From the sequence record EF437941: DNA of 64,000 nucleotides. One strand, written 5' to 3'. A program made the position numbers and the translations under genes. The notes beneath the pieces were generated by a model. The model ran no database searches. It was not told where the DNA came from and saw nothing but the letters and a program-made list of their open reading frames with translations. This document shows, one piece after another, positions 12,989 through 18,195 of the stretch. How positions within the stretch are numbered: the stretch's first letter is position 1; each line of letters begins with the position of its first letter. This DNA is from Escherichia phage Phi1.

Positions 12989-13765
12989 TTACACGCGAGC
13001 ACCGTAGATCGTGCCTACTTTATCCCAACGAGGGGCATTACCAGTAACGGCTTTACCAGCAGCACCACCGTTATATTCTGTACCGTTACCCTGAGTATTA
13101 CATCTTCCTCCAGCAGCACCAACGTTACCTCCAGCACCGCCTGTATATGCACTAAGAGACCCCGAACCAACAGATCCTTTACCTGGAGCGGAAATGGAGC
13201 CAGCGGTTGCACCAGAACCCATATTAGAGGAAGACCCACCAGCACCGAATGGGCGACCACCGCCACCACCAAATACTAGTATACCCCTGTTACCGCCACC
13301 ACCACCGCCACCGCCGCCAACGATAGCACCGTTATTTGTAATTCGTAGACGTGTACCGATAGCGTTATTGATTGCGTTTCCACCAGCAGCGCCAGCAGCG
13401 TTACTACCACCATTACCCCCACGTCCGTAGACAGTCACACCGGAGTTAATGATCAATGTTACATATTCGTTTGTTAACGAGCTAGGGAAGTCAAGACAAG
13501 GAACGCCAGTAGAATGAGAAACAATATTACCAGTGATAGTAATTACTACCGGAGTAGATCCTTGTGCTTTCATCCAGTTAATAAGAGTGTCTTTATTGTA
13601 AGAGTTACTAGCACCAATGCTATAATGAATCTCTTTAGAGCGTCCGACCATTGCCGACATATACGCCGGACGACCTAAGCGTACAGCTTGCATTGCGGCG
13701 CTCATCCACCGTTGACCAGTCTCGGACACCGCAGATGATCCTACCCATCCAGAAGATATTGCCAT
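12989..13765 (-). CDS. 38: glycine-rich protein, gp38-like receptor-recognising adhesin (T2-type architecture)
   Basis: N-terminus GWVGSSAVSETGQRWMS followed by several poly-Gly motifs separating short variable segments; about 258 aa; flanked by hairpins. Confidence 0.55.
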   Translation of the reverse strand: MAISSGWVGSSAVSETGQRWMSAAMQAVRLGRPAYMSAMVGRSKEIHYSIGASNSYNKDTLINWMKAQGSTPVVITITGNIVSHSTGVPCLDFPSSLTNEYVTLIINSGVTVYGRGGNGGSNAAGAAGGNAINNAIGTRLRITNNGAIVGGGGGGGGGNRGILVFGGGGGRPFGAGGSSSNMGSGATAGSISAPGKGSVGSGSLSAYTGGAGGNVGAAGGRCNTQGNGTEYNGGAAGKAVTGNAPRWDKVGTIYGARV

Positions 13766-15354: not shown

Positions 15355-15388
15355 CTAAAAACGAAAAAGCCACCCTTTCGGATGGCTT
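15355..15388 (-). terminator. intrinsic terminator
   Basis: Hairpin AAGCCATCCGAAAGGGTGGCTT plus TTTTTCGTTTTT on the minus strand. Confidence 0.7.
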
Positions 15389-15702
15389 TTGATTATATTT
15401 TATTCACGTCCATTTGTATAGTAGTGTTTGAATCGACCGTAACCAGTTTCAATGGTCATTGTTCTTTGGTGAACAATAGCCCAATAACCGTTACAGGAAT
15501 ATTGCAGATACAAATCTTTACCTTTCATAAACTCATTAAAGATTGTTTCTGCCAGTCATAATAGACAACATCTTCAAGTTACCCATCCATGCGGGTCTTC
15601 CGATTCGGCAGTAATTGAACACGCGAAAGTATGAGGAAGCCAAATGGTTGTGTTAATGCTAGTTTTCTTTTACTTCTGGTATGTATCCCACTGTGACTAA
15701 CA

Positions 15703-16101
15703 TTAAGCCAGTCGAGTGAGTTTATAAATTGTTTTAAAGCATAGAGCTTTGATATCGTCTAAAACACTCTGTAACGAGCTATCAACATCATTATAAATCT
15801 CACTAGCCATTTGCGTTAACTCTTGCAAATAGGCAATTTCGCTAATCTCCTTGCGGACGACCAACGTTGGCTGATAACGACCAGTGATCCCAATATTGGT
15901 TTCAGTGAAATTATCAACCAATTCTTGCATTTCAAGATAGAACTCTTCTAGAGCCTTATGTTTTGCATAAGACCCCGGACCAGTTACCCCAAAATGCGCA
16001 GAATGCATATAAGTAACACTCATCAGACATTCACCGATAAAGCGGTCAACTTTATTAGCTTTCCCATCTTCGGACGTCTTTCGAAAATCACTGAATTTCA
16101 T
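15703..16101 (-). CDS. ferritin-like / Dps-like protein (tentative)
   Basis: HFGVTGPGSYAKHKALEEFY resembles the Dps signature (HWNVKGPNF..H..FEE.Y) recalled from memory; start at the internal ATG (MKFSDF). Confidence 0.45.
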   Translation of the reverse strand: MKFSDFRKTSEDGKANKVDRFIGECLMSVTYMHSAHFGVTGPGSYAKHKALEEFYLEMQELVDNFTETNIGITGRYQPTLVVRKEISEIAYLQELTQMASEIYNDVDSSLQSVLDDIKALCFKTIYKLTRLA

Positions 16102-16390
16102 GTTCTCGATTCTCCATATTATGCAACATAACAAATTGTTGTGCGGCATATTCCCCCATAATAAAACACTGCTTAGAATCCATACATTTACTACGAGCAT
16201 ACATCTTCATAATATGGGCATGAAATTTCTGGCTGGTTTCAATGGAAGGAGATATTTTGTTTACATATACTATCATTGCACCGTCGAAATAATCAGTAAA
16301 GTCACCAGTTGGATCATATTGATCAGCACTAACGCTTCCGACCGCAGTAAAGCATATTGCCGCTGTTAGAGTTTTACGAATAAATGACAT
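16088..16390 (-). CDS. rI: RI-like lysis-inhibition antiholin (signal-anchor periplasmic protein)
   Basis: N-terminal hydrophobic signal; Cys-x6-Cys ... GEYAAQQ segment resembles T4 RI as recalled; adjacent to tk as in T4. Confidence 0.5.
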   Translation of the reverse strand: MSFIRKTLTAAICFTAVGSVSADQYDPTGDFTDYFDGAMIVYVNKISPSIETSQKFHAHIMKMYARSKCMDSKQCFIMGEYAAQQFVMLHNMENREHEIQ

Positions 16391-16458
16391 AAGTCATTCC
16401 CCCAGATTTAAAATATTCAGTTATATTTATAATCTGGGGCTTTATTTATGATTAACTC

Positions 16459-17583: not shown

Positions 17584-17786
17584 TTACATTTAGGGCAATG
17601 CGGTTCTTTAATATAATACCCGTCTGTCTTTGGAACACTAACAGGAGCGGTTTTTATATTATATTCAGTGAAACAACGAAAACAAGTTACGTTTTCTACA
17701 GACTGACGTTTCACCCAATCACCGGAATATAGATCATTTTTATTTGTCATATTCAACCACCACAATGTTAATGTCTGGAGTAGCAA
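17556..17786 (-). CDS. small Cys-rich protein (putative zinc ribbon)
   Basis: CFRCF ... CPKCKC pairs. Confidence 0.4.
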   Translation of the reverse strand: MLLQTLTLWWLNMTNKNDLYSGDWVKRQSVENVTCFRCFTEYNIKTAPVSVPKTDGYYIKEPHCPKCKCRLYWSHL

Positions 17787-18195
17787 TATTAATAATCTCT
17801 TCTACACATTCCCACTCAAGGCCACCGATACCGCAACCGATTTTAGGAATATAGAAAGGCTGTATAGCACCTTCAAAAACATCATTGAGAGACTCAAATC
17901 CTTTCAGGATAGCACCATATTCAGCATTTGGACCCGGTCGGAATTGGGTATAGAGATTCACCCCGCACCAGTTATAACCATTAACTTGATGCGTCCAGAT
18001 ACTAAACCCACCCAACTTTTCTACCTTACCGCGAGAAGTTTGCTTGTCAATCTCTAACGCTTGCGGGAACTCTTTCGCGATCTTTGCAGCAATACCAGCG
18101 CCCATAGTATGAAAACAATTACAACCATGAATTAAATGACCGTTTCCTTGTTTAAACAGGGCGATGAGATCGCCCTTTACAGTATCAATAATCAT
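17740..18195 (-). CDS. macro domain protein (ADP-ribose binding / hydrolase fold)
   Basis: GDLIALFKQG...HGCNC....GAGIA signature typical of macro domains. Confidence 0.75.
   Translation of the reverse strand: MIIDTVKGDLIALFKQGNGHLIHGCNCFHTMGAGIAAKIAKEFPQALEIDKQTSRGKVEKLGGFSIWTHQVNGYNWCGVNLYTQFRPGPNAEYGAILKGFESLNDVFEGAIQPFYIPKIGCGIGGLEWECVEEIINIATPDINIVVVEYDK

What the first reader, a model, noticed from the sequence alone, without database searches (positions are those of the whole stretch)
15703..16101. Possible Dps/ferritin-like protein
HFGVTGPGSYAKHKALEEFY resembles the Dps signature around the ferroxidase-site histidine (HWNVKGPNF..H..FEE.Y). A phage-encoded Dps-like protein could protect DNA or manage iron and oxidative stress during infection. 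The call is by motif only and the protein (~131 aa) is shorter than typical Dps.
Basis: inference. Interest (0 to 1): 0.4.

Follow-up and report, generated by a model that had tools for sequence, protein, structure and literature searches.

The report
Phage T4-type RI.-1 is Dps-like
The flagged gene is the RB49 copy of phage T4's uncharacterised rI.-1 gene; it encodes a compact relative of the bacterial iron-detoxifying protein Dps that keeps the iron-site residues, so this widespread phage gene now has a testable function.

Summary
Window 15703..16101 (minus strand) is a real 132-aa gene, 100% identical to RB49 rI.-1. It overlaps the end of the rI antiholin gene and lies downstream of a T4-type late-promoter motif.

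It belongs to Pfam DUF5856 and PHROG 858, which carries the misleading name "starvation-inducible transcriptional regulator".

Three lines of evidence link it to Dps:
- Sequence: phmmer against PDB gives Dps at E 5e-5. Profile-profile comparison gives 90-93% probability.
- Ligands: the four core Dps ferroxidase residues (H36, H48, D63, E67) are kept in 147-148 of 149 diverse family representatives.

The two ligand pairs lie more than 20 Å apart on the monomer, so they can meet only across a Dps-type dimer.

It differs from canonical Dps: it is shorter, has no BC helix, no Trp after the first His, no PF00210 hit and no basic tail.

Cage formation and iron chemistry are untested. Published proteomics finds orthologues in purified virions of two phage families. 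Some T4 lab stocks carry a frameshift in the gene.

Verdict: a divergent phage branch of Dps-like proteins, of moderate interest.

The parts
15703..16101 (-). rI.-1 coding sequence (132 aa plus stop): a DUF5856 / PHROG 858 Dps-like four-helix-bundle protein
15901..16005 (-). Residues 33-67 (HSAHFGVTGPGSYAKHKALEEFYLEMQELVDNFTE): end of helix A, the A-B loop and most of helix B. It carries the Dps-type ferroxidase residues H36 (15994-15996), H48 (15958-15960), E52 (15946-15948), Y55 (15937-15939), D63 (15913-15915) and E67 (15901-15903).
   Evidence: Translation. Alignment to Dps ligands. Conservation counts.
15937..15996 (-). It includes a 3-residue 'GPG' stretch present only in the RB49-like clade, which gives the same His-to-His spacing (12) as Dps.
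   Evidence: alignment gap in the other homologues.
15724..15759 (-). Helix D segment holding two further family-invariant residues, D115 (15757-15759) and Y126 (15724-15726). Y126 aligns with the conserved helix-D Trp of Dps (Listeria W144). The role of D115 is unexplained.
   Evidence: Y126 in 149/149; D115 in 137/149 plus 7 Glu. (global hhalign, low confidence in this region).
16112..16115 (-). GGAG ribosome-binding site, 10 nt upstream of the rI.-1 ATG and inside the end of rI
   Evidence: Sequence read on the minus strand.
16088..16390 (-). rI antiholin gene. Its last 14 nt overlap the start of rI.-1, so the two form one operon and may be translationally coupled.
   Evidence: Pfam PF24205 Antiholin E 2e-23; RB49 annotation; overlap seen.
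16424..16431 (-). TATAAATA, the T4-type late-promoter consensus, between tk and rI and 33 nt upstream of the rI ATG
   Evidence: T4 has a late promoter at the equivalent place (PMC2962797). The motif alone is not statistically enriched in the window (8 found, 5.8 expected).
15365..15390 (-). Nearest intrinsic-terminator-like hairpin downstream of rI.-1 (11-bp stem then a T run). It is a candidate end of the transcription unit, about 310 nt past the stop codon.
   Evidence: This is a consensus match only. T4-like phage UFV13 has a terminator annotated right after rI.-1 (PMC5931544).

Best explanation
The gene encodes RI.-1, a compact phage-specific homologue of Dps, the bacterial 'mini-ferritin'.

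Shown: it has a ferritin-like four-helix bundle. It keeps the Dps-type metal ligands as two clusters. One cluster is H36 with H48 (plus E52 and Y55) at one end of the A/B helix pair. The other is D63 with E67, 15-19 residues (about 22-28 A) further along the unbroken helix B.

Inferred: these two invariant clusters cannot form one site within a monomer. As in Dps, two subunits probably pair antiparallel about a two-fold axis, so that the His cluster of one subunit meets the Asp/Glu cluster of the other. This would create two inter-subunit di-iron ferroxidase sites per dimer. The dimers probably assemble into a Dps-like shell; a 12-mer would be about 180 kDa.

The site would bind Fe2+ and oxidise it with H2O2 or O2, removing both Fenton reagents.

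The gene is expressed with the rI antiholin from a late promoter. The protein would therefore act late in infection, especially during prolonged (lysis-inhibited) infections, when host stress proteins can no longer be made. It would limit oxidative damage to the phage DNA pool and/or buffer iron.

Orthologues are found in purified virions, so some of the protein may travel with the particle.
For: - Family: Pfam DUF5856 and PHROG 858.
- Sequence homology to Dps: phmmer against PDB gives only Dps-family proteins at the top, best E 5.1e-05. The family profile still finds HP-NAP and Dps. hhalign of the family against 31 cellular Dps gives 90-93% probability. NCBIfam Dps is the best, sub-threshold hit. 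A few cellular Dps carry precomputed PF19174 hits alongside PF00210.
- Ligands: H36, H48, D63 and E67 are invariant in 120 homologues and present in 148, 147, 147 and 148 of 149 diverse representatives. Y55 is present in 144 of 149. T4 RI.-1 and the Ackermannviridae orthologue keep them.
- No ExxH motif is present, so there is no ferritin/bacterioferritin-type intra-subunit site (direct reading of the sequence).
- Expression: 14-nt overlap with rI, and TATAAATA upstream of rI. The T4 rI operon has early and late promoters (PMC2962797).
- Independence from lysis inhibition: homologues occur in phages lacking rI, t and rIII (RaK2, PMC3622015; Ackermannviridae; podoviruses).
- Virion association: LIMEstone1 ORF78 is listed at 13.15 kDa with 3 peptides and 28% coverage (PMC3296691). 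This matches the 13,148.7 Da of the XF4 orthologue. Jiaodavirus gp108/100 gave 26/27 spectra in CsCl-purified virions (PMC13119998).
Against: - No biochemistry exists for any family member, and no member has a solved structure.
- Similarity to Dps is remote, about 19% identity. There is no PF00210 hit even at E 10.
- The model shows a coil where Dps has its BC helix at the two-fold interface. Helices C and D are shorter, and the protein is 132 aa against 144-167 aa for Dps. The dimer and three-fold contacts may therefore differ.
- The Trp that follows the first His in Dps is Phe here and Leu in most of the family.
- The fifth Dps ligand position (E52) is variable family-wide: N, D, E, G or Q.
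- Oligomeric state could not be modelled with the tools available.
- The protein is acidic and has no consistently basic tail, so direct DNA binding is doubtful.
- T4 sublines with a frameshift in rI.-1 are viable (PMC8573959; seen directly), so any benefit is conditional.
- The only genetic data point to a mild effect on lysis-inhibition timing through RIII (PMC2962797).
Confidence: 0.6

Rival explanations
1. It is primarily a virion-carried protein, either inside the capsid or attached to the DNA. Its job is in the particle or at injection: guarding packaged DNA from iron-catalysed damage, or acting immediately on entry. On this view the link to rI is only a matter of late timing. This overlaps with the main explanation on chemistry but differs on where and when the protein acts.
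For: - Orthologues were detected in purified virions in independent studies: LIMEstone1 ORF78, with a stated counterpart in ViI (PMC3296691; mass match), and Jiaodavirus gp108/100 at 26/27 spectra, within the authors' top-40 list (PMC13119998).
- In podovirus genomes the gene sits directly after the portal gene or between the capsid and adaptor genes.
- Predicted viral structures similar to the model include proteins named 'prohead protease' that are 2-3 times its length. Family domains are embedded in proteins of 700-1900 aa.
- A late-promoter motif lies upstream.
Against: - Those proteomes also contained obvious non-structural proteins: ligase, rIIB, helicase, and 135-153 proteins in all.
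- A dense iron-loaded cage could simply co-band with phage in CsCl (inference).
- As far as I know, RI.-1 has not been reported among the head proteins of T4, the best-studied virion.
- Other genomic contexts are not structural: a nin-like region and a giant-virus-like contig next to DnaJ.
Confidence: 0.2
2. It is a lysis-inhibition accessory factor. It works by protein-protein contact, modulating RIII and the RI-T holin complex. The Dps fold is only a scaffold and there is no iron chemistry.
For: - In T4, plasmid over-expression of rI.-1 slightly delays lysis-inhibition collapse, strengthens the RIII effect and relieves RIII toxicity. It has no effect in an rIII mutant (PMC2962797; reviewed in PMC6832632).
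- The rI to rI.-1 gene order, with overlapping stop and start, is kept across T4-like phages.
Against: - The family is widespread in phages with no rI, t or rIII (PMC3622015).
- The near-universal conservation of four outward-facing metal-ligand residues is not explained by a role as an RIII partner.
- The reported effects were small and came from over-expression.
- T4 stocks with a frameshifted rI.-1 are in routine use (PMC8573959).
Confidence: 0.12
3. It is a DNA-binding transcriptional regulator, as the current RefSeq/PHROG product name says ('starvation-inducible transcriptional regulator').
For: Only the product name attached to PHROG 858 and copied into RefSeq records.
Against: - No DNA-binding domain was found in Pfam, NCBIfam or PADLOC.
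- The whole protein is one ferritin-like bundle.
- It is acidic, pI 5.36, and the family's N-terminal tails have a median net charge of 0.
- The name looks like drift from the old description of Dps as a 'starvation-inducible DNA-binding protein'. JGI calls the same clusters 'DNA-binding ferritin-like protein'.
Confidence: 0.03

Closest known systems
Dps (DNA-binding protein from starved cells; the 'mini-ferritin' branch of Pfam PF00210), e.g. Listeria innocua Dps/Fri, Bacillus anthracis Dlp-2, H. pylori HP-NAP, E. coli Dps
   Different: - It is 12-35 residues shorter.
- The model has no BC helix.
- Helices C and D are shorter.
- Phe or Leu replaces the Trp after the first His.
- The Asp47-equivalent position is variable in the family.
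- Most family members have a 3-residue shorter A-B loop.
- It does not score against PF00210.
- It is encoded almost only by viruses.
- Cage formation, iron oxidation and DNA binding are all untested.
T4 RI.-1 (NP_049716; Pfam DUF5856 / PHROG 858)
   Same: It is the orthologue. It has the same position directly after and overlapping rI, the same N-terminus (MKFSDF), about 33% identity over 98% of the length, and the same invariant residues. The window's protein is 100% identical to RB49 RI.-1.
   Different: RB49-type proteins carry a 3-residue insertion in the A-B loop. RB49 has no rI.1 gene between tk and rI.
Mini-bacterioferritin (9qq4; PMC13168243) and other small ferritin-like 12-mers
   Different: According to the abstract of PMC13168243, that protein is a 12-mer with a diiron centre. 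The window's protein has no ExxH motif and so cannot form an intra-subunit ferritin/bacterioferritin-type site, and there is no detectable sequence similarity between the two.
DPS-like genes already reported in phages (Lactobacillus myoviruses, 'Gratiaviridae' and other gut phages; PMC8008677, PMC6669764)
   Same: These are phage-encoded ferritin-superfamily proteins proposed to manage iron and reactive oxygen during infection.
   Different: Those are canonical PF00210-type Dps picked up by standard searches. The RI.-1/DUF5856 family was not counted among them, although it is present in more than 1400 sequenced phages.
Encapsulin shells with ferritin-like cargo (analogy only, from general knowledge)
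   Same: A ferritin-superfamily protein is associated with an HK97-fold protein shell, if the virion association is real.
   Different: Encapsulated ferritins have a different subunit architecture and a targeting peptide. No targeting signal or internal location has been shown here.

Membership tests
Dps (mini-ferritin) | Ferritin-like four-helix bundle subunit | tested here: met
   [not shown]
Dps (mini-ferritin) | Inter-subunit ferroxidase ligands: His (end of helix A), His, Asp and Glu (helix B); Listeria H31, H43, D58, E62 | tested here: met
   H36, H48, D63 and E67 align to these residues. They are invariant in 120 homologues and present in 147-148 of 149 representatives. That they meet across a dimer is inferred, not shown.
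Dps (mini-ferritin) | Fifth site residue (Listeria D47) and radical-trapping Tyr50 and Trp32 | tested here: inconclusive
   E52 is present here but variable in the family (N49, D31, E24, G22, Q17). Y55 is conserved in 144 of 149. The Trp position is Phe here and Leu in 116 of 149.
Dps (mini-ferritin) | Short BC helix in the long cross-over loop, at the two-fold interface | tested here: not met
   DSSP on the model gives coil for residues 74-87, at high confidence.
Dps (mini-ferritin) | Dodecameric hollow shell with 23 symmetry | not testable with these tools
   Only single-chain prediction is available, and there is no solved structure of any family member.
Dps (mini-ferritin) | Acidic residues lining the three-fold 'ferritin-like' pore at the start of helix D | tested here: inconclusive
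   D105, D107, D114 and D115 are present. The global hhalign pairs D107 with the invariant Dps D125, but with low column confidence. D115 is nearly invariant, but its equivalent in Dps is not established.
Dps (mini-ferritin) | Scores above threshold against the curated models (Pfam PF00210; NCBIfam Dps) | tested here: not met
   There is no PF00210 hit at E up to 10. NCBIfam PRK09448 scores 16.2 bits against a cut-off of 114.
Dps (mini-ferritin) | Fe2+ oxidation by H2O2/O2 and iron-core formation | not testable with these tools
   This needs biochemistry.
DUF5856 / PHROG 858 / T4 RI.-1 orthologues | Scores above the Pfam gathering threshold; full-length match to the PHROG | tested here: met
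   PF19174 scores 75.4 bits against a cut-off of 34.6. PHROG 858 gives E 1.7e-43 over residues 1-131.
DUF5856 / PHROG 858 / T4 RI.-1 orthologues | Position immediately downstream of rI in T4-like genomes | tested here: met
   Antiholin PF24205 lies at 16088..16390 and overlaps the start. The arrangement is the same in RB49, T4 and RB6.
Ferritin / bacterioferritin | Intra-subunit di-iron site: Glu (helix A), ExxH (helix B), Glu (helix C), ExxH (helix D) | tested here: not met
   There is no ExxH motif anywhere and no His in helices C or D (sequence).
Transcriptional regulator (current product name) | A recognisable DNA-binding domain or a basic DNA-binding surface or tail | tested here: not met
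   No such domain was found. pI is 5.36, and the family's N-terminal tails have a median net charge of 0.

The most novel reading that the evidence does not exclude
RI.-1/DUF5856 is a Dps-like ferroxidase that tailed phages deliberately package. The capsid would then work like a natural encapsulin carrying a ferritin-type cargo. The cargo would protect the tightly packed genome from iron- and peroxide-driven damage outside the cell, or be ejected with the DNA. In T-even phages, released particle contents of this kind could even contribute to the still-undefined signal sensed by the neighbouring rI gene product during superinfection.
Probability: 0.15. Interest if true: 0.75.

Novelty: new variant of a known kind. 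Interest (0 to 1): 0.5.

Why it matters
rI.-1 sits in one of the oldest studied loci of phage genetics, the r genes of T-even phages, and has had no biochemical assignment. Matches occur in more than 1400 sequenced phage genomes, including phages being developed for therapy. Public databases label it either 'hypothetical' or, misleadingly, 'transcriptional regulator'.

Recognising it as a Dps-type protein with an intact metal site has three consequences:
- It turns an unknown into a set of direct experiments: oligomer state, iron oxidation, ligand mutants, and comparison of T4 stocks that naturally differ by a frameshift in this gene.
- It suggests that control of iron and peroxide matters during long, lysis-inhibited infections.
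- It offers an explanation for why the protein keeps turning up in virion proteomes.

It would also correct a published statement that Dps-like genes are rare in phages (PMC8008677).

Tried and rejected
- **Literature search.** 'DUF5856' returned no papers. Phage-encoded Dps combined with T4-like terms returned none. No paper was found that describes RI.-1 as Dps-like.
- **Defence-system models.** PADLOC gave only chance-level hits.
- **Fusion partners as a clue to function.** Ten multi-domain family members (243-1934 aa) showed no other Pfam domain apart from one weak DUF3008 hit, and no informative PHROG. The neighbours of the 1934-aa protein on its contig matched no PHROG.
- **Genomic context as a test of a structural role.** The result was mixed. 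Three podovirus contexts lie within the head module. One lies in a nin-like region, one is giant-virus-like and two are uninformative. Context alone therefore cannot decide.
- **A Lys-rich DNA-binding tail as in E. coli Dps.** Rejected as a family feature: median net charge 0, and only 19% of tails reach +2 or more.
- **Assigning D115 to the Dps pore aspartate D130.** The spacing to the conserved aromatic residue differs (11 against 14), and the global profile alignment is of low confidence there. This is left open.
- **The longer 165-aa ORF (start at 16200).** Rejected, because orthologues start at MKFSDF.

Full report
**What is there**

The window is from a phage almost identical to Escherichia phage RB49 (Krischvirus, Straboviridae). 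A 4.5-kb stretch around the finding matches 57 phage records at 90-99% identity.

The finding's coordinates, 15703..16101, are exactly one minus-strand coding sequence of 132 codons plus a stop. Its product is 100% identical to RB49 RI.-1, AAP21959.2. The quoted peptide is residues 36-55.

The gene starts 14 nt before the end of the rI antiholin gene (16088..16390; Pfam Antiholin E 2e-23). It has its own GGAG site 10 nt upstream. The T4 late-promoter consensus TATAAATA lies at 16424..16431, between thymidine kinase and rI. This matches the arrangement described for the T4 rI operon (PMC2962797). Other neighbours are tk, a macro-domain protein, an SLT-domain protein and a gp38 adhesin.

**Family**

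The protein belongs to Pfam DUF5856 (E 7.8e-21) and PHROG 858 (E 1.7e-43).

tblastn finds it in 1412 of 50,697 phage records. These cover T4-like phages of Escherichia, Klebsiella, Salmonella, Aeromonas and others, where it usually sits next to rI. They also include Ackermannviridae.

A full HMM scan of 1.84 billion cluster representatives finds 1907 members at E up to 0.001. A minority are embedded in proteins of 200-1900 aa.

**Is it Dps-like?**

Three kinds of evidence agree.

- *Sequence.* The single protein finds Dps proteins as its best PDB matches; the nine best are all Dps-family, with a best E of 5.1e-05. The family profile still finds HP-NAP and a Dps. Against a profile of 31 cellular Dps, hhalign gives 90% probability (E 1.6e-06) in local mode and 92.6% (E 6.3e-08, 123 columns) in global mode. 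In the other direction, a few cellular Dps carry precomputed DUF5856 hits beside PF00210.
- *Ligands.* The alignments pair H36, H48, E52, Y55, D63 and E67 with Listeria Dps H31, H43, D47, Y50, D58 and E62. The Listeria numbering comes from general knowledge of that protein and is consistent with the sequence aligned. H36, H48, D63 and E67 are invariant in 120 homologues. They are present in 148, 147, 147 and 148 of 149 representatives of 50%-identity clusters, and Y55 is present in 144. T4 RI.-1 and the Dickeya phage orthologue keep them.

**How it probably works**

H36 lies at the end of helix A and H48 near the start of helix B, so they sit together. D63 and E67 lie 15-19 residues further along the same unbroken helix, about 22-28 A away at 1.5 A per residue.

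Two invariant polar clusters that far apart cannot form one site in a monomer. In Dps, the equivalent clusters from two subunits meet across the two-fold axis and form the ferroxidase centre.

The simplest reading is that RI.-1 does the same: it binds Fe2+ and oxidises it with H2O2 or O2, probably inside a Dps-like shell. This step is inferred. There is no ExxH motif, so a ferritin/bacterioferritin-type internal site is excluded.

Late expression together with the antiholin fits a role in long infections, when the host can no longer induce its own Dps. This is an inference from general knowledge of T4 host shut-off.

**Differences from canonical Dps**

- The protein is 132 aa, against 144-167 aa for Dps.
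- The model shows coil where Dps has the BC helix.
- Helices C and D are shorter.
- The Trp after the first His is Phe here and Leu in most of the family.
- The E52 position is variable.
- PF00210 and the NCBIfam Dps model are not reached.
- The protein is acidic (pI 5.36), and the family's N-terminal tails are not basic. DNA binding of the E. coli Dps kind is therefore unlikely.
- Two more invariant residues on helix D, D115 and Y126, are only partly explained. Y126 aligns with the conserved Dps Trp.

**What is already known about the gene**

In T4, rI.-1 is part of the rI operon. Over-expression slightly prolongs lysis inhibition and relieves RIII toxicity (PMC2962797, PMC6832632).

Homologues exist in phages without rI, t or rIII (PMC3622015). 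This argues that the core function is not lysis inhibition itself.

T4-Barr and T4-Rao stocks carry a frameshift (179dupG) that truncates the protein (PMC8573959). I saw the same truncation in T4 record OZ209057.1. The gene is therefore dispensable in the laboratory.

The RefSeq name 'starvation-inducible transcriptional regulator' has no support in the sequence. No searchable paper calls RI.-1 Dps-like. One survey states that Dps-like genes are rare in phages (PMC8008677).

**An unexpected thread: virion association**

- LIMEstone1 ORF78 is an 'unknown structural protein' of 13.15 kDa with 3 peptides and 28% coverage, and the paper states it has a counterpart in ViI virions (PMC3296691). Its mass matches the 13,148.7 Da of the orthologue in the closely related phage XF4.
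- In CsCl-purified T4-like Klebsiella phages, the protein gave 26/27 spectra, similar to some baseplate and neck proteins (PMC13119998).
- In several podovirus genomes the gene lies directly after the portal gene or between the capsid and adaptor genes.
- Other contexts are not structural.
- Those proteomes also contain clear contaminants.
- A dense iron-loaded cage could co-band with phage.

Packaging therefore remains a rival or an addition to the main explanation, not a conclusion.

**Verdict**

This is a real and very widespread phage gene encoding a divergent, compact Dps-like protein with an intact Dps-type metal site. Membership of canonical Dps fails on some defining features and is untested on the decisive ones, namely the 12-mer shell and iron oxidation. 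I therefore file it as a new variant of a known kind. Interest is moderate. It would be higher if the virion association proves to be specific.

Noticed in passing
window 12989..13765 (-): A full-length gp38 tail-fibre adhesin gene (Pfam GP38 E 1.8e-70 plus Gp38_N; glycine-rich motifs) lies only about 2 kb downstream of rI.-1, among small genes of unknown function. The RB49 annotation agrees. I did not check where gene 37 lies relative to it.
   Followed up: partly
L002 2501..2900 (T4 record OZ209057.1); compare L005 1320..1706 (T4 RefSeq): This T4 'mut_betagt' genome has rI.-1 broken by a frameshift after residue 60. It also has His48 changed to Pro. The frameshift matches the 179dupG/Glu61fs reported for the T4-Barr and T4-Rao stocks (PMC8573959). 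Widely used T4 stocks may therefore lack this protein.
   Followed up: yes
window 15964..15972 (-), residues 41-43 'GPG': Only the RB49-like clade has this 3-residue stretch in the A-B loop. It restores the exact Dps His-to-His spacing of 12. Most family members have a spacing of 9. This is why the RB49 protein matches Dps better (E 5e-05) than the family profile does (E 3e-03).
   Followed up: partly
P0171 (L006 8001..13805), P0242, P0224, P0194, P0268 and many 200-300 aa proteins: The DUF5856 domain occurs inside very large proteins of up to 1934 aa. It also occurs at the N-terminus of many proteins with unrelated C-terminal extensions of 100-180 aa. None of the partner regions match Pfam or PHROG families.
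   Followed up: partly
L010 6001..6375 and L011 (metagenome contigs): One family member sits on a 45-kb contig with a chlorophyll a/b-binding-like gene, an RNR small subunit, DnaJ and DUF5754/DUF5872. The contig looks like an algal or giant virus rather than a phage. BFVD fold hits also include Pithovirus and Fadolivirus proteins.
   Followed up: no
[not shown]
   Followed up: partly
window 17740..18195 (-): Tk.4 is a macro-domain protein (Pfam Macro E 6e-07). Current phage annotations call it 'phosphatase'.
   Followed up: no
P0277, P0369, P0371, P0377 (cellular Dps of Bacillus cytotoxicus and Aneurinibacillus): These ordinary bacterial Dps proteins carry precomputed hits to both PF00210 and the phage family PF19174. 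They may mark the part of the Dps tree closest to the phage family.
   Followed up: no
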